Notes under the pieces: model-generated | The model's input: the letters and a program-made list of their open reading frames with translations, nothing else | Databases searched by the model: none | What the model was told of the DNA's origin: nothing | Part shown: positions 9,956 to 54,137 of the stretch, one piece after another | Layout: each line of letters starts with the position of its first letter | Numbering within the stretch: the first letter of the stretch is position 1 | Assembly: GCA_021809925.1 (NCBI GenBank) | Contig: JAJZJV010000001.1 | Span: 14,138 to 78,137, forward strand | Length of the DNA: 64,000 bases | Reading direction: 5' to 3' | DNA from: Candidatus Micrarchaeota archaeon | Lineage (GTDB): Archaea > Micrarchaeota > Micrarchaeia > Micrarchaeales > CABMGC01 | Translations under genes and position numbers: made by a program

Positions 9956-10441
9956 ATGATATACTATGATACTCTTCGGAAAGTCTATAAGCCAAAATAC
10001 GCTATCCTGACCGTTGTTCTAGGGATAACCTATTCTTTTGCGTTCTGGTATCTGGCATACATTCAGGGTGGCAACGCGGTCATGCTGTCCGTACCAATTT
10101 ATATGATTTTTCTGCTTGTGGCAAGTTCCTCTGTTCTCATGACAATCGCTGTATATTCTATGTGGAGCACGCATAAAAACAACTCAAAAGCGATAGGCAC
10201 AGTGCCCAGCGTAGGTACAATCGTGCTAGGTAGCGGCCTATGTGGTTGCACTACTACCTTGCTACCAACCATGGCCCTGGCGGTGGGCATGAGCACTCCG
10301 GCGGTCTATGCGCTCACTTCGTTCCTGAGGAACTACAACATGGAAATCATTTTGCTGCTGATAACCCTCAATGTTGTGATCATAGCATACTATCTGAACA
10401 AGTTGTCTGGCCCCAAACGTAAAATAGCTAAAACGCCTTGA
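9956..10441 (+). CDS. polytopic membrane protein with intramembrane GLCGCTTT motif
   Basis: About four or five hydrophobic helices with a CGC motif inside one of them. Last gene of the cluster, 9 nt after the previous stop. Confidence 0.5.
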   Translation: MIYYDTLRKVYKPKYAILTVVLGITYSFAFWYLAYIQGGNAVMLSVPIYMIFLLVASSSVLMTIAVYSMWSTHKNNSKAIGTVPSVGTIVLGSGLCGCTTTLLPTMALAVGMSTPAVYALTSFLRNYNMEIILLLITLNVVIIAYYLNKLSGPKRKIAKTP

Positions 10442-10629: not shown

Positions 10630-11751
10630 AGACTTCGCCGAACCATCATCGTGGTATGTTAAATTAAAACGTCACCCTTCCATCTCATTCATTGGTCATG
10701 GTACTCTTCATCCCTCTTGAGCATCCAATATATGATTCGCAACAATCTCTTCATGCTGGCTATCTTCGCCTTCTTCCTTCCTATTCTGTCCCTGTTTTCT
10801 TCATACCAATATGTCACAATCGAACTCTTGCCGAATCTCGTGTGAATGTTGGCACATTGCAGCAATACTGACTTAAGGAAGGTGTTGCCTTTCACTATGT
10901 GACCTTTCCATTCATTGTCTCCGGACTGGTGTGTCCGCGGCACAACGCCTGCGAATGAAAACAGTCTGAATTCGTCGTGGAATCGATTTATGTCGCCTAT
11001 TTCTGCAGCGATTATAAGAGAAGCGCACGGACCGAAACCAGGAATCGTATCTATAAGCCGCGCATAATGGCTGACTAATGATTTGCCGTTTTGCACGATA
11101 TCATGGATCCTTTTATCGTATTCTCCAATGGTTGCATCAGTCTCGTCTAACTGCCTGAGAAGCAGTTCAAGTTTCGGCTCGTTCCCCAATATCTTCCTGT
11201 TTTTCTTTCCAAGTCTCTTTACGTCTATCCCGAGGCAGAACGCATGGTACTTTATCTTGTTGACTATTGCAACTCTCTGCCTTACGGCTAACGCCCTATC
11301 CCTGCAGAGGTCCCTCGCATCCCTAACCTCCCTGATTGGCAGGTAAGATTTGGGCAGATAGTCCTTCTTGTACAGATCCATGAGCGTGTGCGCATCATTC
11401 TTGTCGGTCTTCTTTACCGACTGCGAGATAAGTCTCACCTTTGCGGGATGCGCAACAGTCAAATCATAACCCTCAAACATGTTTGCAATCCAATTGGTGT
11501 TGCTGCTTGCCTCAACTATTATTTTGGGATTGTCCACTTCTTCAAAGAAAGCAGAGAACCCCTCTTTTGTTGTATATGTGTATCCCTCTTTCACAACTAT
11601 GACGTTCTCTTCCATAACAACATAACTCTTCCACTTCCCAAGGTCTATTGCCATTTCCATATTTGCACCCATTTATACATTACACCGCAACATTATCTGG
11701 CTTGTTGCGGCATCTGGGTGCGAGGAGGAATTAAACATGCCAGACTTCGCC
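10630..11751 (-). mobile_element. IS110-family insertion sequence, boundaries tentative
   Basis: The transposase is flanked by an exact 10-nt direct repeat, agacttcgcc, at 10630-10639 and 11742-11751. The upstream non-coding end may instead extend to about 11880. Confidence 0.4.
10689..11672 (-). CDS. IS110-family (DEDD) transposase
   Basis: AIDLGK N-terminal DEDD start, KTDKNDA motif, and a C-terminal IPGFGP...AEIGDINRF helix-hairpin-helix-like region with SGD...G. The true start is probably the Met at 11654. Confidence 0.85.
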   Translation of the reverse strand: MGANMEMAIDLGKWKSYVVMEENVIVVKEGYTYTTKEGFSAFFEEVDNPKIIVEASSNTNWIANMFEGYDLTVAHPAKVRLISQSVKKTDKNDAHTLMDLYKKDYLPKSYLPIREVRDARDLCRDRALAVRQRVAIVNKIKYHAFCLGIDVKRLGKKNRKILGNEPKLELLLRQLDETDATIGEYDKRIHDIVQNGKSLVSHYARLIDTIPGFGPCASLIIAAEIGDINRFHDEFRLFSFAGVVPRTHQSGDNEWKGHIVKGNTFLKSVLLQCANIHTRFGKSSIVTYWYEENRDRIGRKKAKIASMKRLLRIIYWMLKRDEEYHDQ

Positions 11752-39398: not shown

Positions 39399-40250
39399 TT
39401 ATTCTCTCTTACATAATTTCCTGGCTATATTTATATACTCTTCTTTGATGCTCTCATCTTCGACCAGTGGCACCTTGCCCTCGTCGCTCATCCTTGCTAT
39501 CTTATCATTCATCTTGATGCTGCCCAAAAGTTCGCATTCTAGCGACTTCGCTACCTCCACAGAGCCTCTAAGCTCACCAGTTGACATATTCTCCACAACA
39601 CCCAGGATGGAAACACCCATTCTTTTGGACATTCTTCCAGATTTTATTGCGTTTACCGCAGCAACATGTTGTGGTGTAGTCACGAGCAAAAACCCATCAA
39701 GTTCCAGAAGCTGCATTATGGATAGAGGGGCATCAGATGTGCCAGGTGGCAAGTCTATTATAAGATAGTCAAGCTCTCCCCAATTGGTATTCTCAAAAAA
39801 TTCACGTATCATCTTCGCTATTATCGGGCCTCTCCATATTATCGGCCTCCTGAGGTCATCAACAAAGACCGCAGTTGTAATGATCTTAACGCCATCCTTC
39901 TCAACAGGTTTTAGGGGATACTCTGCTGCCTGCAATCCCTCAATGCCTAAAAAGAGCGCAAGATTTGGGCAATCCACATCTGCATCCATAAGCCCAACCT
40001 TATAACCCATCTCCTTCAATGCAAAAGCCAGATTCACAGCAGTTGTCGTTTTTCCTACGCCACCTTTTGCGCTATAAACTCCTATCCGGTGCTTTATGCC
40101 GGATAGCCTCTTCTTAATATTTTCTCTCTGTTTTAATACATTAAGAATTGAAGGATGTTCTACTTTCACTGAGGCATTCCCAACATTGATATTGTCTCCT
40201 ATCTTGGGATTTTCCATGATATCACCTGATCTCGATAAGGAAGCCCACAC
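39399..40250 (-). CDS. Mrp/NBP35-family Fe-S cluster carrier ATPase
   Basis: Deviant Walker A SAKGGVGKTT, plus DADVDCPN and IIDLPPGTSD. The true start may be the Met at 40217. Confidence 0.85.
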   Translation of the reverse strand: MWASLSRSGDIMENPKIGDNINVGNASVKVEHPSILNVLKQRENIKKRLSGIKHRIGVYSAKGGVGKTTTAVNLAFALKEMGYKVGLMDADVDCPNLALFLGIEGLQAAEYPLKPVEKDGVKIITTAVFVDDLRRPIIWRGPIIAKMIREFFENTNWGELDYLIIDLPPGTSDAPLSIMQLLELDGFLLVTTPQHVAAVNAIKSGRMSKRMGVSILGVVENMSTGELRGSVEVAKSLECELLGSIKMNDKIARMSDEGKVPLVEDESIKEEYINIARKLCKRE

Positions 40251-40297
40251 GATTTATCGGTGGGAGGAATTGTCGAGCATTAGTATTATGTATCTTT

Positions 40298-40315
40298 CCA
40301 AACATATATGTTTGG
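40298..40315. repeat. perfect 18-bp palindrome just upstream of tnpB
   Basis: ccaaacata|tatgtttgg, 8 nt before the tnpB ATG. Candidate left-end hairpin or operator. Confidence 0.6.
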
Positions 40316-40323
40316 TTAATAGT

Positions 40324-41571
40324 ATGAAACGTGCTATTCTTTTGCAGATCGATGGGATTACTGCCAAGAAGGGCAAAATCCTCAAGGATTTCTCCTTGAA
40401 AGCGACTTCCGAATTTAATAGGCTTTGGGAAGACAGAGATTTCTGCAATACCTTCATGGATTTCCATAGGAAGACTTTTGTTGAATCCAAAAAGAGGACT
40501 GGATTCAATGTTCAGGTTTATGCCTGTCTGGAACGTGCAGTATGGAGAAGCAAGGGCAAGTCCAGTGCGGTTACCGTCAAATTCAACGTTCCTCGCAACT
40601 GCAAGACTTTTGATATGACAATGCCTTTCATTGAACTTGGAATTTATCCACGAAAGAGGATTGCCGTCCCCATAAAGAAAAACATGAATTTCCAACGATA
40701 CGCTGATCTCCTGAAGTCTGGATGGACATGCAAGACTTATGGGCTTACTTCCAATTTGCAGATTGTCGCTTATCTTTCCAAATACGAGGTTGAATTGCCT
40801 TTGAAGAAGAATATTCTCGGAGTTGATGTGAACAGCAAATGCTTTGCGGTTTCTGTTCTTTCCCCAGAAGGAAAGGTTTTGCATCAGGATTACTTCGGGA
40901 AGGATATTTGGGTTAAGAGAAAGAAGGTCTTTGAGGGGAAGGCTGTTCTGCAAAGTTACGTCGATACTGGAAGTTCTTATGCGAATAAGGCACTTAAGAG
41001 GACTAAACGAAATGAACACAACTTTGTCAAGAACCGAATAGGTGAAGTCGTGAGGAACATTACCGAAATGGCTCTGCGATATGATGCAGAAATTTCCATA
41101 GAGAACCTCAAAAGGTTCAGTCCAAAAGGAAAGATGTTTAATAGGGAGGTAATGAGAATCCCATTCTTTACTTTCAGGAAGAACCTCATGCAGAGGTGTT
41201 TTGACAAGAAGATTACGCTGAACATCGTTGATGCATGGCATACATCCAAGTTCTGTTCCCACTGCGGTGCTGTTGGGAAAGGACATGACAGTAGCAACTA
41301 TGCTCTGTTCAGATGCAAAGAATGTGGGGTTGTCGTGAACTCTGATAGAAAGGCAAGTCTCAATATTGCCATAAAATCCCTGTTGGAGCGGAGAGATACT
41401 ATTAACCATAATACTCTCCAGATTTCCAATAGGAGAGTCCCTGTAAACGGGCTTATTCGTCCAGATGCGGTTGTTGAACCGATTGTTGCCGTGCGACATG
41501 TTTCATCAACTTATGGAAAGCCCACAGGCTTTAGCCATGGGAAGTTTACAAAAGACGCTATATTATCTTAG
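40324..41571 (+). CDS. tnpB: TnpB (IS200/IS605-family OrfB, RuvC-like RNA-guided nuclease)
   Basis: RuvC D (LGVDVNS), E (ISIENL), zinc finger CSHCG...CKECG, and a final D (NSDRKASLNIA). The start is set at the ATG at 40324 (MKRAILLQ); the track extension overlaps the mrp promoter side. Confidence 0.9.
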   Translation: MKRAILLQIDGITAKKGKILKDFSLKATSEFNRLWEDRDFCNTFMDFHRKTFVESKKRTGFNVQVYACLERAVWRSKGKSSAVTVKFNVPRNCKTFDMTMPFIELGIYPRKRIAVPIKKNMNFQRYADLLKSGWTCKTYGLTSNLQIVAYLSKYEVELPLKKNILGVDVNSKCFAVSVLSPEGKVLHQDYFGKDIWVKRKKVFEGKAVLQSYVDTGSSYANKALKRTKRNEHNFVKNRIGEVVRNITEMALRYDAEISIENLKRFSPKGKMFNREVMRIPFFTFRKNLMQRCFDKKITLNIVDAWHTSKFCSHCGAVGKGHDSSNYALFRCKECGVVVNSDRKASLNIAIKSLLERRDTINHNTLQISNRRVPVNGLIRPDAVVEPIVAVRHVSSTYGKPTGFSHGKFTKDAILS

Positions 41572-51676: not shown

Positions 51677-52834
51677 ATGGTGTATGGCTCAATGAAAGTG
51701 ATCATAGCGCAACCCTATCTTAACATCAAGGGAGGAGCGGAACGGGTGGTATTAGAGATAGCAAAGCATTACGATGCCAAAATATATACGCTAGAGTATG
51801 ACAAGAAGAATACCTTTGAAGGCTTCTCAGAGCTCGACATAAACATAATCGGGAAGGACATTCCATTGTCTGGAATGTTGCCCTACAAAGCCTCGCAAGG
51901 CCTAAGGTTTGGATATAATTTCTATAACCTGGAGTTAAAGGAAGATTATGATGTAATAAATGCACACATCTCTCCCAGCGAATGGATAAGGCACAAAAAT
52001 AAGGGCGTATTGTGGTATTGCCACACTCCTCCCAGGGAGGTTTATGATCTTTACGCAGAAAGGATGAAATATAGGACATACAAGGAAAAGTTCATATATG
52101 CGACAATGGCAAAAGCCTACAAGATGGTCTCGCATAAGGTAGTCGGCAAGATAGAGTGTATAGCCACAAACAGCGAGACCACAAAGGAAAGAATCGCCAG
52201 ATACTTCGAAAGGGAAGCAGATGTAGCAAACCCAGGAATAGATTACAATGCATTTGAGAACAAAGCCTATGAAAAATTCTTTTTTTATCCCTCGCGCATA
52301 ACTCCGAACAAAAGACAGGATTATGTAATCAATGCTTTCAAGAAGTTCGTCTCAAAGACTGGCAGAAAAGATTACCGCCTGGTCCTTGCTGGTGCACTAT
52401 CAAAGAATCCAGAGCATATCGCATACCTTACCAAAATAAAAAAACTTTCCAACGGTCTAAATGTTAAGATAATCACGAACATCTCGGACAAGGAGCTCAA
52501 AGGCCTATATTCAAGGGCATATGCGGTGTTGTTTGCCGCAATAAATGAAGATTATGGTTACATCCCTCTAGAAGCTATGGCAAGCCGCAAGCCAGTGATC
52601 TCCGTCAACGAAGGCGGACCAAAAGAGACGGTTCTCGACGGCAAAACTGGCTTTCTAGTAAACTCTGATAAGGAGATGGGAGATAAGATGGCAATGCTTG
52701 TGGATCATCCATCTACTGCAGAGCAGATGGGCAAAGAAGGGCAGAAACGCGTATCATTGCTTTACTCTTGGAAAGCATTCTTCAAAAAATTCGATTCCTT
52801 GTTAGAGGATACAAAGAAAAGATCAGATCTCTAA
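51677..52834 (+). CDS. GT4-family glycosyltransferase
   Basis: EDYGYIPLEAMASRKPVISVNEGGPKETV (E-x7-E region). Confidence 0.8.
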   Translation: MVYGSMKVIIAQPYLNIKGGAERVVLEIAKHYDAKIYTLEYDKKNTFEGFSELDINIIGKDIPLSGMLPYKASQGLRFGYNFYNLELKEDYDVINAHISPSEWIRHKNKGVLWYCHTPPREVYDLYAERMKYRTYKEKFIYATMAKAYKMVSHKVVGKIECIATNSETTKERIARYFEREADVANPGIDYNAFENKAYEKFFFYPSRITPNKRQDYVINAFKKFVSKTGRKDYRLVLAGALSKNPEHIAYLTKIKKLSNGLNVKIITNISDKELKGLYSRAYAVLFAAINEDYGYIPLEAMASRKPVISVNEGGPKETVLDGKTGFLVNSDKEMGDKMAMLVDHPSTAEQMGKEGQKRVSLLYSWKAFFKKFDSLLEDTKKRSDL

Positions 52835-53142
52835 TCAAGAACATATTTTGAGATTATCTTAGCAGCACGCTCAAGCACTGCCTTTATATCCTTCTCTGTA
52901 TTAAGCCCTGTGCAGATGAGCTTGCCGTTCTTGAATAATATTATGGCAGCTTTTGTATCTTTCATCCTGAATATCGCTCCAGGAAACTGCTCTGGCTCAT
53001 AATCCACCTCCTTAACACCCTTAGAAAGCGCATAGAGGTCTATGTTTGCATGAAGGTCAGCACTCACCACAATGTTCTGTATCTTTATGATGGGCCTTAT
53101 ATTAATCTCCTTCATCACCGGAGCCGCTTCCTGCTTGCTCAT
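52831..53142 (-). CDS. single-repeat TATA-binding-protein-like protein (half-TBP)
   Basis: IQNIVVSADLHANIDL...DYEPEQFPGAIFRMKDTKAAIILFKNGKLICTGLNTEKDI matches one TBP repeat almost motif for motif. The protein is only 103 aa, and no second repeat appears in any frame upstream. Confidence 0.8.
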   Translation of the reverse strand: MSKQEAAPVMKEINIRPIIKIQNIVVSADLHANIDLYALSKGVKEVDYEPEQFPGAIFRMKDTKAAIILFKNGKLICTGLNTEKDIKAVLERAAKIISKYVLD

Positions 53143-53162
53143 AATATCACTAGACTATAACG

Positions 53163-53174
53163 ATATTTAATAAA
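53163..53174 (-). promoter_or_regulatory. TATA-like box for the half-TBP gene
   Basis: The minus strand reads tttattaaatat, centred about 27 nt upstream of the ATG. This suggests a leaderless transcript with its own promoter. Confidence 0.3.
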
Positions 53175-53242
53175 GATGAACTACTTTTTAATTCTTTCGC
53201 TGGCAGAGGCAAAGCTAATAATCTAAAAACAATATTATTTTT

Positions 53243-53656
53243 ATGCAAAGGCAAACATCCCGCACCAGCGGAGAAGCACTTAAATTGATAAAGGCCCAAG
53301 AACGTACTCTCGACAGCATCCAGGAATACATTGCCTCGCAGAAGGGTACATCTCCAGATCCAAAAATTGCCCAAAAACTAAGGCACATAAGAAACAATCT
53401 CCTCGTTGGATTTTCTCTCTTATCTAGAAAGGAAGAGGAAGAATACGCGCGCTCAACTTCCGAGGATGCTGTATGGAGAAGGTATGGCGTCTCCTTGACT
53501 TCTGGGTATACTTTTATAGGGTTTTTCCCTCCTATAATGTATCTATCTTTTATCGATTTCGGGTTTATATCTCTCATCTGGAATCCATACTGTAGCAAGA
53601 CCGATTCTGAAACTGCTATCAAAGCAATACTTAAATCTTTGAAAAGAACTACATAA
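53243..53656 (+). CDS. hypothetical small membrane protein
   Basis: Helical N-terminal half and a hydrophobic C-terminal half. It competes with an antisense ORF at 53215-53622. I prefer the plus strand because it is co-oriented with the dnaK operon. Confidence 0.3.
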   Translation: MQRQTSRTSGEALKLIKAQERTLDSIQEYIASQKGTSPDPKIAQKLRHIRNNLLVGFSLLSRKEEEEYARSTSEDAVWRRYGVSLTSGYTFIGFFPPIMYLSFIDFGFISLIWNPYCSKTDSETAIKAILKSLKRTT

Positions 53657-53726
53657 TGTTATTATTTTCAACTTTTTGTTGAAAAAAAGCAAAAATTTAT
53701 ATACTTTGATGTACATAATACTTTCG

Positions 53727-54137
53727 ATGGGAGTCACAGAAAAGATCGTAATCAAAACAGTCAACAGACCCGATGGAAAGGACATCGAGGCGCTCTCAGG
53801 TTGGTTCTGCAAGGTCTTCGACCTATCAAATGGGAGAAGTGCTATAGAACCTCTAATATTACAGGAGATAGCAAACACAAGCCTCAAGGGTGACGGGACG
53901 ACAAGCAAGATGCTGAATAAAAAACTCTCAGTCCCAAGAAGCACAGTCATATATCATCTTAACAGATTCATATATTCTGGTCTTGTGATCAGGCGTGGCA
54001 GAAAATACTTCTTGCGTTCAAATGATATGGTAAGCACACTTGAAGACCTTCAAGGTGAGATATTGAGAGAGTTCAGCAGGCTGATAGAGTTTGCAGAAAA
54101 AATGGATGAGATAATAGAGGGCGGTATTGATGAGTGA
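53727..54137 (+). CDS. winged-helix regulator upstream of grpE
   Basis: SKMLNKKLSVPRSTVIYHLNRFIYSGLVIRRGRKYFL wHTH. It overlaps the grpE start by 11 nt. Confidence 0.5.
   Translation: MGVTEKIVIKTVNRPDGKDIEALSGWFCKVFDLSNGRSAIEPLILQEIANTSLKGDGTTSKMLNKKLSVPRSTVIYHLNRFIYSGLVIRRGRKYFLRSNDMVSTLEDLQGEILREFSRLIEFAEKMDEIIEGGIDE

What the first reader, a model, noticed from the sequence alone, without database searches (positions are those of the whole stretch)
52831..53142. Stand-alone single-repeat TBP: half of a TATA-binding protein with its own promoter
Canonical archaeal and eukaryotic TBP is an internal duplication of two repeats of about 90 aa that together form the saddle. This 103-aa ORF contains exactly one repeat, with near-canonical motifs (IQNIVVSADL, DYEPEQFPGAIFR, ILFKNGKLICTG). 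It has a short N-terminal extension and a TATA-like box at the right distance upstream. None of the upstream frames encodes a second repeat, so it is not simply a frameshifted full-length gene. A single-repeat protein would have to homodimerise, or pair with another half, to bind DNA. That makes it interesting both as a possible model of the pre-duplication ancestor and as a potential regulator or competitor of the real TBP.
Basis: partly seen in the sequence, partly recalled or inferred. Interest (0 to 1): 0.58.

Follow-up and report, generated by a model that had tools for sequence, protein, structure and literature searches.

The report
Stand-alone single-lobe TATA-binding protein
This small gene encodes exactly one of the two lobes of the archaeal TATA-binding protein; it is strongly conserved across a whole group of tiny Micrarchaeota-type archaea and most likely works as a pair of identical halves, but I could not show that it is their only TBP.

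Summary
ORF 52831-53142 (-) encodes 103 aa with one TBP lobe (Pfam PF00352, E=2e-25). No second lobe exists in any frame of the 64-kb window.

It is not a frameshift, pseudogene or mis-assembly. The identical ORF with the same neighbours lies on 13 independently assembled contigs. Orthologues of about 100 aa (66-99% identity) occur in 65 species-representative Micrarchaeota-labelled genomes, including two records titled 'chromosome: 1'. dN/dS is about 0.09, and the protein is as conserved as DnaK.

The DNA-kinking Phe residues, the minor-groove Asn/Val/Thr and the TFB-binding stirrup (YEPEQFPG) are invariant or nearly so. The lobe carries no N- or C-lobe signature.

In related DPANN lineages, two-lobed TBPs have lobes up to 94% identical (dS 0.25-0.76). 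Stand-alone halves also occupy the same L21e-RpoF locus as those tandems. Half and tandem forms therefore look interchangeable there.

The best reading is a homodimeric TBP saddle. The unresolved point is a second TBP-family gene elsewhere: a published table gives two arCOG01764 proteins in the Micrarchaeota genome Mia14. Single-lobe archaeal TBPs are already published, but this family is not in the papers I could search, so I rate it a new variant of a known kind.

The parts
52831..53142 (-). Coding sequence of the 103-aa single-lobe TBP, stop codon included
   Evidence: ORF list and sequence. Pfam PF00352 E=2e-25 with one stretch. The exact protein was called on 13 independent contigs. dN/dS about 0.09 across orthologues.
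52843..53088 (-). The TBP lobe proper (aa 19-100), with topology S1-H1-S2-S3-S4-S5-H2. It contains N23/V25 (S1), the stirrup Y48-E-P-E-Q-F53-P-G55, R59, F70, K74, I76 and T78.
   Evidence: Pfam stretch 19-100. AF2 secondary structure E24-29, H36-42, E46-49, E55-59, E66-70, E74-80, H83-98. Foldseek matches one lobe of solved TBPs at TMq about 0.7 and rmsd 1.4-2.2 A. Invariant columns in 67 orthologues. Mapping onto yeast F99/F116/T124/N69 and onto the stirrup YEPELFPG (E186/E188/L189 in my numbering).
53089..53142 (-). N-terminal leader (aa 1-18). The first part varies in length and is often Lys-rich in orthologues. It ends in the conserved Pro17-x-Ile-Lys-Ile-Gln that leads into strand S1.
   Evidence: Alignment A1. 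Pro at -6 in 99% and Gln at -1 in 99% of the family. This resembles the inter-lobe linker/C-lobe of canonical TBPs (75% and 74%) and not their N-lobe (28% and 31%).
53163..53174 (-). TATA-like box TTTATTAAATAT, centred about 26-27 nt upstream of the ATG. It is a putative promoter of a leaderless or very short-leader mRNA.
   Evidence: Read directly from the sequence. About 10-fold enrichment of such boxes at gene starts in this window against random positions. TATA-like elements lie 23-35 nt upstream of candidate starts in many orthologues, though start codons there are ambiguous.
53143..53242 (.). 100-bp A+T-rich intergenic spacer shared with the divergent ORF 53243..53656. It holds the promoter region(s).
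   Evidence: The divergent ORF has no Pfam match and is conserved only in the closest relatives.
51677..52834 (+). Context only, not a functional part. This is the convergent GT4 glycosyltransferase gene whose stop codon overlaps that of the half-TBP (52831-52834). It leaves no space for a second lobe.
   Evidence: Pfam Glycos_transf_1/Glyco_transf_4. The convergent GT4 neighbour is kept in most of the 65 orthologous loci and in L002-L005.

Best explanation
The gene encodes a functional single-lobe TATA-binding protein. Two copies are inferred to associate through the central S1 strands and H2 helices, as the two lobes of canonical TBP do, giving a TBP saddle with exact two-fold symmetry. Each subunit would contribute one pair of DNA-kinking phenylalanines and one TFB-binding stirrup. 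The dimer would bind and bend the quasi-palindromic TATA box, and transcription direction would be set by TFB reading the BRE, as is established for archaea.

Shown here: the gene is real, single-lobed, lineage-wide, syntenic and under strong purifying selection. It keeps the TBP DNA-contact and TFB-contact residues and has no N- or C-lobe specialisation. Close DPANN relatives carry two-lobed TBPs with nearly identical lobes, and also stand-alone halves at the same TBP locus.

Inferred, not shown: dimerisation, DNA binding, TFB recruitment, and whether this is the only TBP of the cell.
For: (1) It is real and stable. The identical ORF and neighbours lie on 13 contigs from independent samples. 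One-lobe orthologues occur in 65 GTDB species-representative genomes, including records titled 'chromosome: 1' (OY969114.1, OY970071.1), and in a 940-kb contig. Each has only one lobe within +-10 kb.

(2) Constraint is strong. Median dN/dS is 0.089 over 457 pairs; the window against L006 gives dN=0, dS=0.23. Against L007 the protein is 95% identical, compared with DnaK 93, GrpE 88, GT4 87, HisRS 80 and FAD reductase 72%. In distant genomes the figures are 66-83% against 45-67% for GT4.

(3) Functional residues are kept. N23, V25, Y48-E-P-E-Q-F53-P-G55, F70, K74 and I76 are invariant, and R59 and T78 are nearly invariant, in 67 orthologues. They align to yeast N69/N159, V71/V161, F99/F190, F116/F207, T124/T215 and the TFIIB-binding E186/E188/L189 stirrup (residue roles are from established TBP structures).

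(4) The fold is one TBP lobe.

(5) The lobe is symmetric. HMMs specific for N- and C-lobes separate held-out canonical lobes by -9.2 and +9.6 bits, but score this family at -0.4 (range -3.3 to 3.4). The two yeast lobes score the same, 55.8 bits each.

(6) Relatives show halves and tandems to be interchangeable. DPANN two-lobed TBPs have a median lobe-lobe identity of 59%, reaching 94%, against 38% in canonical TBPs. At least 6 independent groups show this. The lobes are 82-93% identical at the DNA level, with dS 0.25-0.76. One such protein (P0321) is modelled as a canonical saddle, pLDDT 96 and TM about 0.9 to solved TBPs. Stand-alone halves L073, L075 and L077 sit at the same KsgA-DUF655-RpoF-L21e locus as the tandem genes.

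(7) No two-lobed TBP shares a contig length with any half-carrying long contig in three database searches.
Against: (1) Golyshina et al. 2017 (PMC5498576, Suppl. Data 4) list two proteins of arCOG01764 (TBP) in the complete Micrarchaeota genome Mia14. At least one relative therefore has a second TBP-family gene, of unknown kind.

(2) This family does not sit at the L21e-RpoF locus where DPANN relatives keep their TBP. It also forms a long, separate branch, at most 56% identical to any tandem lobe. A relocated paralogue would look like this.

(3) I could read only +-10 kb around the gene in other genomes. The contig-length test sees only the 120 best hits per search, so a divergent or half-size second gene would be missed (one search shows why such hits rank low).

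(4) No multimer prediction was possible. The monomer model is only moderately confident (pLDDT 65).

(5) Some of the 'clade-2' halves used as an analogy could be assembly collapses of near-identical tandem lobes.

(6) There are no experimental data.
Confidence: 0.55

Rival explanations
1. It is one piece of a split TBP. The lobe pairs with a second, different single-lobe protein encoded elsewhere in the genome, and the heterodimer is the functional TBP.
For: Mia14 has two arCOG01764 proteins. The leader of this family carries the hallmarks of a C-lobe plus linker (Pro -6 99%, Gln -1 99%). All ten NCBIfam TBP models align it to their C-terminal half. A second kind of stand-alone half with a short, N-lobe-like leader exists in DPANN genomes (L071, L073, L075, L077).
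Against: No second lobe was found within +-10 kb in any of 65 genomes or in the 64-kb window. None of the four assemblies with the other kind of half is among the 65 assemblies carrying this family, and vice versa within the 80 loci shown. The lobe has no C-lobe signature overall (-0.4 bits). Relatives with 90-94% identical lobes show that asymmetry is not required in this lineage.
Confidence: 0.2
2. It is an accessory paralogue. A conventional TBP is encoded elsewhere, and the half-TBP acts as a specialised or regulatory factor, for example by competing for TATA boxes or TFB, or by capping a TBP lobe.
For: The gene has left the ancestral L21e-RpoF TBP locus. It forms a long separate branch. 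Mia14 has two TBP-arCOG proteins. There is precedent: Halobacterium TbpA is a non-essential single-lobe paralogue that coexists with full-length TBPs (Brindefalk 2013).
Against: Conservation equals or exceeds that of DnaK, with dN/dS 0.09. Every DNA- and TFB-contact residue is retained, which is more than a mere competitor would need. No two-lobed TBP was seen on the same long contigs, although that test is limited. No tandem version of this family exists in the database.
Confidence: 0.15
3. It is an artefact or decay product: a truncated pseudogene, a frameshifted full-length TBP, or an assembly collapse of a tandem repeat.
For: Near-identical tandem lobes do exist in related lineages and could in principle collapse during short-read assembly.
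Against: There are 13 independent contigs with the identical gene and 65 species with intact ORFs and conserved synteny, including chromosome-level records. dN/dS is 0.09. No lobe remnant occurs in any frame nearby. No tandem form of this family is present anywhere in the database searches.
Confidence: 0.01
4. It is a TBP-fold nucleic-acid-binding module with a role outside transcription, like the N-terminal domain of RNase HIII or the TBP-like domains of DNA glycosylases.
For: The TBP fold is used in such contexts (Brindefalk 2013). There are weak sub-threshold matches to DUF3378 and rnhC.
Against: Those matches lie far below threshold (15.5 bits against 27; 12.7 against 161). Foldseek gives RNase HIII E=0.12 against 1e-6 for TBPs. 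The protein is not fused to any catalytic domain. The TBP-specific stirrup and Phe pairs are invariant.
Confidence: 0.04

Closest known systems
Canonical archaeal TBP (for example Methanocaldococcus jannaschii 2Z8U, Pyrococcus woesei 1PCZ/1AIS, Sulfolobus acidocaldarius 1MP9)
   Same: Same lobe fold and sequence family, 37-40% identity per lobe. Same DNA-kinking Phe pair, the same minor-groove Asn/Val/Thr, and the same YEPEQFPG stirrup that binds TFB. A TATA-like promoter lies upstream.
   Different: It has one lobe of about 85 aa plus a short leader, instead of two fused lobes of about 180 aa. It falls far below the full-length NCBIfam cutoffs (84 bits against 181-347). It has no N/C-lobe asymmetry. 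It lacks the acidic C-terminal tail that I recall as usual for archaeal TBP; some family members carry a basic tail instead. It must oligomerise to form a saddle.
Monopartite TBP-domain proteins of Thermococcales (Brindefalk et al. 2013, NAR 41:2832, PMC3597702)
   Same: Stand-alone archaeal proteins of 82-136 aa made of one TBP domain. They were shown by genomic context not to be mis-annotated halves.
   Different: According to that paper, those proteins are strongly diverged from TBP, form their own sequence cluster, and coexist with a normal TBP. The present family is near-canonical TBP (PF00352 E=2e-25), comes from Micrarchaeota-type DPANN archaea, and coexistence with a normal TBP is unknown. 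I made no direct sequence comparison with the Thermococcales proteins.
Halobacterium TbpA (single-lobe TBP paralogue)
   Same: A single TBP lobe that clusters with genuine TBP lobes.
   Different: According to the paper, TbpA is very similar to full-length TBPs of the same species, is non-essential, and is one of several TBP paralogues. The present family has no close two-lobed counterpart (at most 56% identity), is conserved across at least 65 species, and is under strong constraint.
Two-lobed TBPs of Iainarchaeota/Diapherotrites and other Micrarchaeota-labelled DPANN, with near-identical lobes
   Same: They share the lineage motifs EYEPEQFPGAI and LFKNGK[LIV]IC and group with the half-TBP family in the NJ tree. 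They are effectively covalently linked homodimers, with lobes up to 94% identical.
   Different: They are fused tandems at the L21e-RpoF locus. The window's family is unfused, sits next to a GT4 gene, and forms a separate clade with 100/100 bootstrap support.

Membership tests
TBP (Pfam PF00352 / arCOG01764 / K03120) | Sequence match to the TBP lobe above the curated threshold | tested here: met
   88.9 bits against a cutoff of 22.9, E=2e-25, covering the full length of the profile. PDB TBPs match at E down to 4e-36.
TBP (Pfam PF00352 / arCOG01764 / K03120) | Two tandem lobes in one polypeptide forming the saddle | tested here: not met
   One stretch only. No second lobe in the window or within +-10 kb in 65 orthologous loci. 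Full-length NCBIfam TBP models score 67-85 bits against cutoffs of 181-347.
TBP (Pfam PF00352 / arCOG01764 / K03120) | The lobe fold S1-H1-S2-S3-S4-S5-H2 | tested here: met
   The AF2 model has this topology (pLDDT 65). The top 44 Foldseek hits are all TBP lobes, with TMq 0.65-0.74 and rmsd 1.4-3.6 A.
TBP (Pfam PF00352 / arCOG01764 / K03120) | DNA-contact residues: a pair of intercalating Phe, and Asn/Val of S1 and Thr of S5 in the minor groove | tested here: met
   F53, F70, N23 and V25 are invariant and T78 nearly invariant in 67 orthologues. They align to yeast F99/F190, F116/F207, N69/N159, V71/V161 and T124/T215. Residue roles are from published TBP-DNA structures.
TBP (Pfam PF00352 / arCOG01764 / K03120) | Stirrup that binds TFB/TFIIB (Glu-Pro-Glu-x-Phe-Pro-Gly) | tested here: met
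   Y48-E49-P50-E51-Q52-F53-P54-G55 is invariant and identical to the stirrup of archaeal TBPs in PDB alignments.
TBP (Pfam PF00352 / arCOG01764 / K03120) | Binds and bends TATA DNA and nucleates the pre-initiation complex | not testable with these tools
   This needs EMSA/FRET and in vitro transcription.
TBP (Pfam PF00352 / arCOG01764 / K03120) | It is the general TBP of its genome, with no other TBP gene | tested here: inconclusive
   No two-lobed TBP shares a long contig with a half in the three top-120 lists. However, Mia14 has two arCOG01764 proteins, and whole genomes could not be read.
Thermococcales monopartite TBP-domain proteins (Brindefalk 2013) | Stand-alone protein made of one TBP domain | tested here: met
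Thermococcales monopartite TBP-domain proteins (Brindefalk 2013) | A sequence cluster separate from genuine TBP lobes, restricted to Thermococcales | tested here: not met
   This protein is a near-canonical TBP lobe, and its relatives are Micrarchaeota-labelled. No direct pairwise comparison was run.
Halobacterium TbpA-type truncated paralogue | Very close similarity to a full-length TBP of the same organism | tested here: not met
   The closest two-lobed TBP lobes are 52-56% identical. No tandem form of this family appears in the database searches.
RNase HIII N-terminal TBP-like domain (PF11858 / TIGR00716) | TBP-like domain fused to an RNase H catalytic domain | tested here: not met
   The protein is 103 aa and stand-alone. 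PF11858 scores 15.5 bits against 27; TIGR00716 scores 12.7 against 161.2. Foldseek gives RNase HIII E=0.12. All homologues listed carry only PF00352, and all are at most about 175 aa except one two-lobed TBP, P0099.
Split (two-gene) proteins of DPANN archaea | A complementary second piece encoded by another gene in the same genome | tested here: inconclusive
   None is found within the window or within +-10 kb in 65 genomes. Mia14 has two TBP-arCOG genes.

The most novel reading that the evidence does not exclude
In this large Micrarchaeota clade the only TBP is a homodimer of a single lobe. That would make it a living, lineage-wide example of the symmetric, unfused state long postulated as the ancestor of TBP. 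In neighbouring DPANN lineages the two-lobed TBP would have been re-created several times, and recently, by tandem duplication and fusion of such a half. TBP architecture would then be evolutionarily reversible, and promoter polarity in these organisms would rest entirely on TFB/BRE.
Probability: 0.35. Interest if true: 0.82.

Novelty: new variant of a known kind. Interest (0 to 1): 0.62.

Why it matters
TBP is the textbook case of a pseudo-symmetric protein thought to have arisen from a homodimer by duplication and fusion. All characterised TBPs that act in transcription initiation are two-lobed.

A near-canonical single lobe is conserved as tightly as DnaK across dozens of species. Relatives also switch between half and tandem forms at one locus. 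Together these would make the homodimer hypothesis directly testable with a natural protein.

It also poses concrete mechanistic questions. How does a perfectly symmetric TBP with two identical TFB-binding stirrups yield unidirectional transcription? Why do these organisms tolerate or prefer the unfused state?

There is a practical point too. Annotation pipelines label these genes either 'TBP' (JGI) or 'hypothetical protein' (most NCBI names seen). Comparative-genomics tables that report 'TBP present' in DPANN therefore hide the half-size architecture.

Tried and rejected
(1) Frameshift or a missing adjacent lobe. tblastn and a lobe HMM over all six frames of the window and of 85 related loci found nothing. 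Rejected.

(2) Mis-assembly. Rejected on the basis of 13 independent contigs and 65 species.

(3) RNase HIII-type domain. Rejected.

(4) Virus or mobile-element origin. IMG/VR holds only distant TBP relatives at 31-43% identity, and none belongs to this family. The neighbours are housekeeping genes.

(5) Looking for a full-length TBP in the same genomes. I compared the 'longest_contig' values of half-TBPs (940636, 295294, 285162, 227441 and others) with those of two-lobed TBPs in three searches and found no match. Only 120 hits are shown per search, so the result is suggestive only.

(6) A search seeded with the second kind of half. I abandoned it because two-lobed DPANN TBPs outscore any half and would fill the list.

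(7) Literature and supplements for Micrarchaeota TBP counts. Only Golyshina 2017 gave a number, two in Mia14. Five other papers or their supplements gave nothing.

(8) The third protein search, seeded with a Micrarchaeaceae half (P0072) to find the Mia14 proteins by name. No such name appeared.

(9) The L21e-RpoF-DUF655-KsgA locus in half-carrying genomes. It is absent from the window and from all +-10 kb flanks, so I could not see what sits there.

(10) Conservation of the promoter box across orthologues. Start codons are ambiguous; only 12 of 47 loci scored at least 7/8 at -22..-32, although many others show TATA-like boxes a little further upstream. I treat this as weak support only.

(11) Strict monophyly of canonical N- or C-lobes in an 85-column NJ tree. 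It was not recovered (0/100), so the tree cannot place the family relative to the ancient N/C split.
Full report
**Observation**

The minus-strand ORF 52831..53142 exists as described. It is 103 aa long with an ATG start and a TAG stop, and its sequence is MSKQEAAPVMKEINIRPIIKIQNIVVSADLHANIDLYALSKGVKEVDYEPEQFPGAIFRMKDTKAAIILFKNGKLICTGLNTEKDIKAVLERAAKIISKYVLD.

Pfam finds one TBP lobe, covering aa 19-100 and the whole 85-position profile (88.9 bits, E=2e-25). The ten NCBIfam full-length TBP models match only with their C-terminal half and stay far below their cutoffs. Solved TBPs match with both of their lobes against this single lobe.

The gene is boxed in. Its stop codon overlaps the stop of a convergent GT4 glycosyltransferase gene (51677..52834). 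Only 100 bp separate its start from a divergent ORF. Neither tblastn nor a TBP-lobe HMM run over every six-frame ORF finds another lobe in the 64-kb window.

TTTATTAAATAT (53174..53163, minus strand) is centred 26-27 nt before the ATG. Boxes of this quality at this distance occur at 1.6% of random positions, but at 9 of 59 gene starts in the window. This fits leaderless or short-leader archaeal mRNAs.

**Not an artefact**

The exact protein, with the same neighbours (GrpE/DnaK on one side, GT4 and a geranylgeranyl-reductase-like gene on the other), was called on 13 contigs. They come from NCBI, Logan and ENA assemblies of different samples.

A scan of one genome per GTDB species returned 65 assemblies with a one-lobe orthologue at 66-99% identity. 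Nearly all are titled Micrarchaeota, Micrarchaeia or Micrarchaeales. They include two records titled 'chromosome: 1' of 0.78 and 1.21 Mb. A further orthologue lies on a 940-kb contig.

In every one of these loci only one lobe is present within +-10 kb. The convergent GT4 neighbour is retained in most of them.

The core is under strong purifying selection. Median dN/dS is 0.089 over 457 unsaturated pairs. The window against its closest relative shows dS=0.23 with no amino-acid change in the core. Conservation matches or exceeds that of DnaK and clearly exceeds that of the flanking genes.

The rest of the window is ordinary archaeal chromosome. It carries Kae1, CysRS, gyrase, Lhr, Orc1/Cdc6, proteasome alpha, HisRS, GrpE-DnaK-DnaJ and a two-component system.

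**What the protein looks like**

Among 67 orthologues, the following are invariant: N23, I24, V25, Y48-E-P-E-Q-F53-P-G55, A56, I57, I68, L69, F70, K71, G73, K74, I76, C77 and G79. R59 and T78 are nearly invariant.

The correspondences are:
- F53 and F70 align with the two intercalating phenylalanines of a lobe (F99/F116, and F190/F207 in the other lobe).
- N23, V25 and T78 align with the minor-groove contacts (N69, V71 and T124).
- Y48-G55 aligns with the stirrup whose E186/E188/L189 bind TFIIB.

The roles of these residues come from the published TBP-DNA and TBP-TFIIB/TFB-DNA structures, not from tests made here.

An AlphaFold2 model has the canonical S1-H1-S2-S3-S4-S5-H2 topology at moderate confidence (pLDDT 65). 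Its 44 best Foldseek matches are all single lobes of solved TBPs. RNase HIII appears only at E=0.12.

**N-lobe, C-lobe or neither**

I built HMMs from the N-lobes and from the C-lobes of canonical TBPs. They separate held-out lobes by -9.2 and +9.6 bits. The half-TBP family scores -0.4 bits, with a range of -3.3 to +3.4. The two yeast lobes also give identical BLAST scores. The body of the lobe is therefore unspecialised.

The leader is different. Pro at -6 and Gln at -1 relative to the S1 Asn are present in 99% of the family. The same residues occur in 75% and 74% of canonical C-lobes, where they belong to the inter-lobe linker, but in only 28% and 31% of N-lobes. This hints at descent from a C-lobe-plus-linker unit. 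The sample for this comparison is modest.

**Relatives and evolutionary setting**

In a neighbour-joining tree of lobes, the family is monophyletic in 100/100 bootstraps. It groups with other stand-alone halves and with both lobes of DPANN-type two-lobed TBPs, apart from the canonical N- and C-lobes. The deeper nodes are weak.

The DPANN two-lobed TBPs are labelled Diapherotrites/Iainarchaeum, Anstonellaceae and some 'Micrarchaeota'. They are unusual:
- Their two lobes are 47-94% identical (median 59%), against a median of 38% in canonical TBPs.
- At least six groups have lobes more similar to each other (75-94%) than to the lobes of any other group (51-75%).
- In three proteins examined at the DNA level, the lobes are 82-93% identical with dS of 0.25-0.76. 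This is no older than species- or genus-level divergence.
- One such protein, P0321, is modelled with pLDDT 96 as a canonical saddle and superposes on solved TBPs at TM about 0.9.

Stand-alone halves of a second kind (L073, L075, L077) sit divergently next to L21e-RpoF-DUF655-KsgA. That is exactly where related genomes carry the tandem gene. One of these halves is 94% identical to a lobe of a tandem protein.

Two readings fit these data. Either halves repeatedly duplicate and fuse, or the lobes of tandems are homogenised and occasionally halved. In both cases this lineage tolerates, and perhaps prefers, a symmetric TBP. A caveat applies: some of these second-kind halves could be assembly collapses of near-identical lobes.

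**Mechanism proposed**

Two copies of the 103-aa protein form a C2-symmetric saddle. It would have four kinking phenylalanines and two identical TFB-binding stirrups, and would bind the TATA box. Polarity would come from TFB-BRE recognition, which is already the orientation determinant in archaea (established knowledge).

What is shown: the gene's reality, its constraint, the conserved contact residues, the symmetry of the lobe, and the interchangeability of half and tandem forms in relatives.

What is inferred: dimerisation, DNA binding and TFB recruitment.

**The unresolved point**

Whether this is the cell's only TBP could not be settled. Evidence that leaves a second gene possible:
- Supplementary Data 4 of Golyshina et al. 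2017 lists two arCOG01764 proteins in the complete Micrarchaeota genome Mia14, and one in most other DPANN genomes.
- The family has left the L21e-RpoF locus.

A second TBP-family gene, either another half or a two-lobed TBP, may therefore persist elsewhere.

Evidence on the other side is limited. In three database searches, no two-lobed TBP shared a contig length with any half-carrying long contig. None of the assemblies with tandem or second-kind genes overlaps the 65 assemblies with this family. Both tests see only the top of the hit lists.

I therefore give 0.55 to a homodimeric functional TBP, 0.20 to a heterodimer with a second half, and 0.15 to an accessory paralogue.

**Comparison with what is known**

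Single-lobe TBP-domain proteins in archaea have been published. Brindefalk et al. 2013 (PMC3597702) describe two kinds:
- Halobacterium TbpA, which is close to full-length TBPs of the same species and is non-essential.
- A strongly diverged Thermococcales family that coexists with a normal TBP.

Ravarani et al. [quoted passage not shown]

None of the searchable papers describes the Micrarchaeota family, its conservation, or the near-identical-lobe tandems of DPANN.

The protein meets the lobe-level defining features of TBP but fails the two-lobe architecture. It does not fit the Thermococcales or TbpA descriptions, nor the RNase HIII domain. I therefore class it as a new variant of a known kind.

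**Verdict**

The finding is real and more interesting than a curiosity. Its highest-value reading, a sole homodimeric TBP, rests on a whole-genome check that these tools could not perform. Interest 0.62.

Noticed in passing
L090 3001-3540 (P0321); L091 3001-3549 (P0354); L093 334-957 (P0373): Two-lobed TBPs of DPANN archaea have nearly identical lobes: 90-95% at the amino-acid level, 82-93% at the nucleotide level, dS 0.25-0.76. At least six independent groups show this. The pattern implies recent tandem duplication-fusion of a half-TBP, or gene conversion between lobes.
   Followed up: partly
L073 ~9989-10258; L075 ~9989-10258; L077 ~9983-10270; compare L072, L078, L081, L083, L097: Stand-alone half-TBPs of a second kind occupy the same divergent position next to L21e-RpoF(Rpb4)-DUF655-KsgA as the tandem TBPs of related genomes. 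L075 is 94% identical to one lobe of tandem P0334. These are either real halves or assembly collapses.
   Followed up: partly
L071 9995-10285: Another stand-alone half lies in a Micrarchaeales-labelled MAG, 52% identical to the window protein. Its housekeeping locus differs: PolD small subunit, L1-L10-P1, RIO-type kinase, then the half-TBP, then UbiA.
   Followed up: partly
Protein P0060 (150 aa; ENA contig of 3.4 kb): The first ~40 residues of the neighbouring GT4 glycosyltransferase are fused in frame to the half-TBP. This is probably an assembly chimera or a local rearrangement between the two convergent genes.
   Followed up: no
Proteins P0136 (272 aa), P0288 (283 aa), P0137 (376 aa), P0140 (702 aa): TBP-family proteins with three or four lobes appear among the best hits of the exhaustive search. 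They could be real multi-lobe proteins or fused gene calls of tandem TBP genes.
   Followed up: no
Record titles of L006, L020, L022, L030, L043, L055; names of P0025, P0046, P0108, P0428: Contigs carrying this archaeal gene are labelled Marsarchaeota, Saccharimonadales bacterium, Actinomycetota bacterium, Acidoferrum, 'bacterium' or Baltobacteraceae in NCBI. These are likely mis-binned or mislabelled MAGs. The window's own closest relative is labelled Marsarchaeota, while nearly all other relatives are labelled Micrarchaeota.
   Followed up: no
window 40096-41571 (+), 40222-41499 (-), 10689-11672 (-): A TnpB-like ORF (Cas12f1-like TNB domain) is overlapped almost fully by a 425-aa antisense ORF. 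An IS110-family transposase is also present.
   Followed up: no
Proteins P0428, P0422, P0432 (halves); P0313, P0138, P0139 (tandems): Many DPANN TBPs and some halves carry Lys/Ala/Pro-rich basic C-terminal tails of up to about 140 aa, instead of the acidic tail that I recall as usual for archaeal TBPs. The window protein has no tail.
   Followed up: no
window 52831-52834 and orthologous loci: The stop codons of the half-TBP and the convergent GT4 gene overlap. This tail-to-tail arrangement is kept in most of the 65 orthologous loci, leaving no room for a terminator between the two genes.
   Followed up: partly
window 53676-54137 (+): A 153-aa ORF lies directly upstream of, and overlaps, grpE-dnaK-dnaJ. 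It has no Pfam match but is 85-93% conserved in the closest relatives. It could be a regulator of the chaperone operon.
   Followed up: no
window, 59 putative gene starts: TATA-like boxes matching at least 7/8 of TTTAWATA lie 22-32 nt upstream of the ATG at 15% of gene starts, against 1.6% of random positions. This suggests that many transcripts in this genome are leaderless or have very short leaders.
   Followed up: partly
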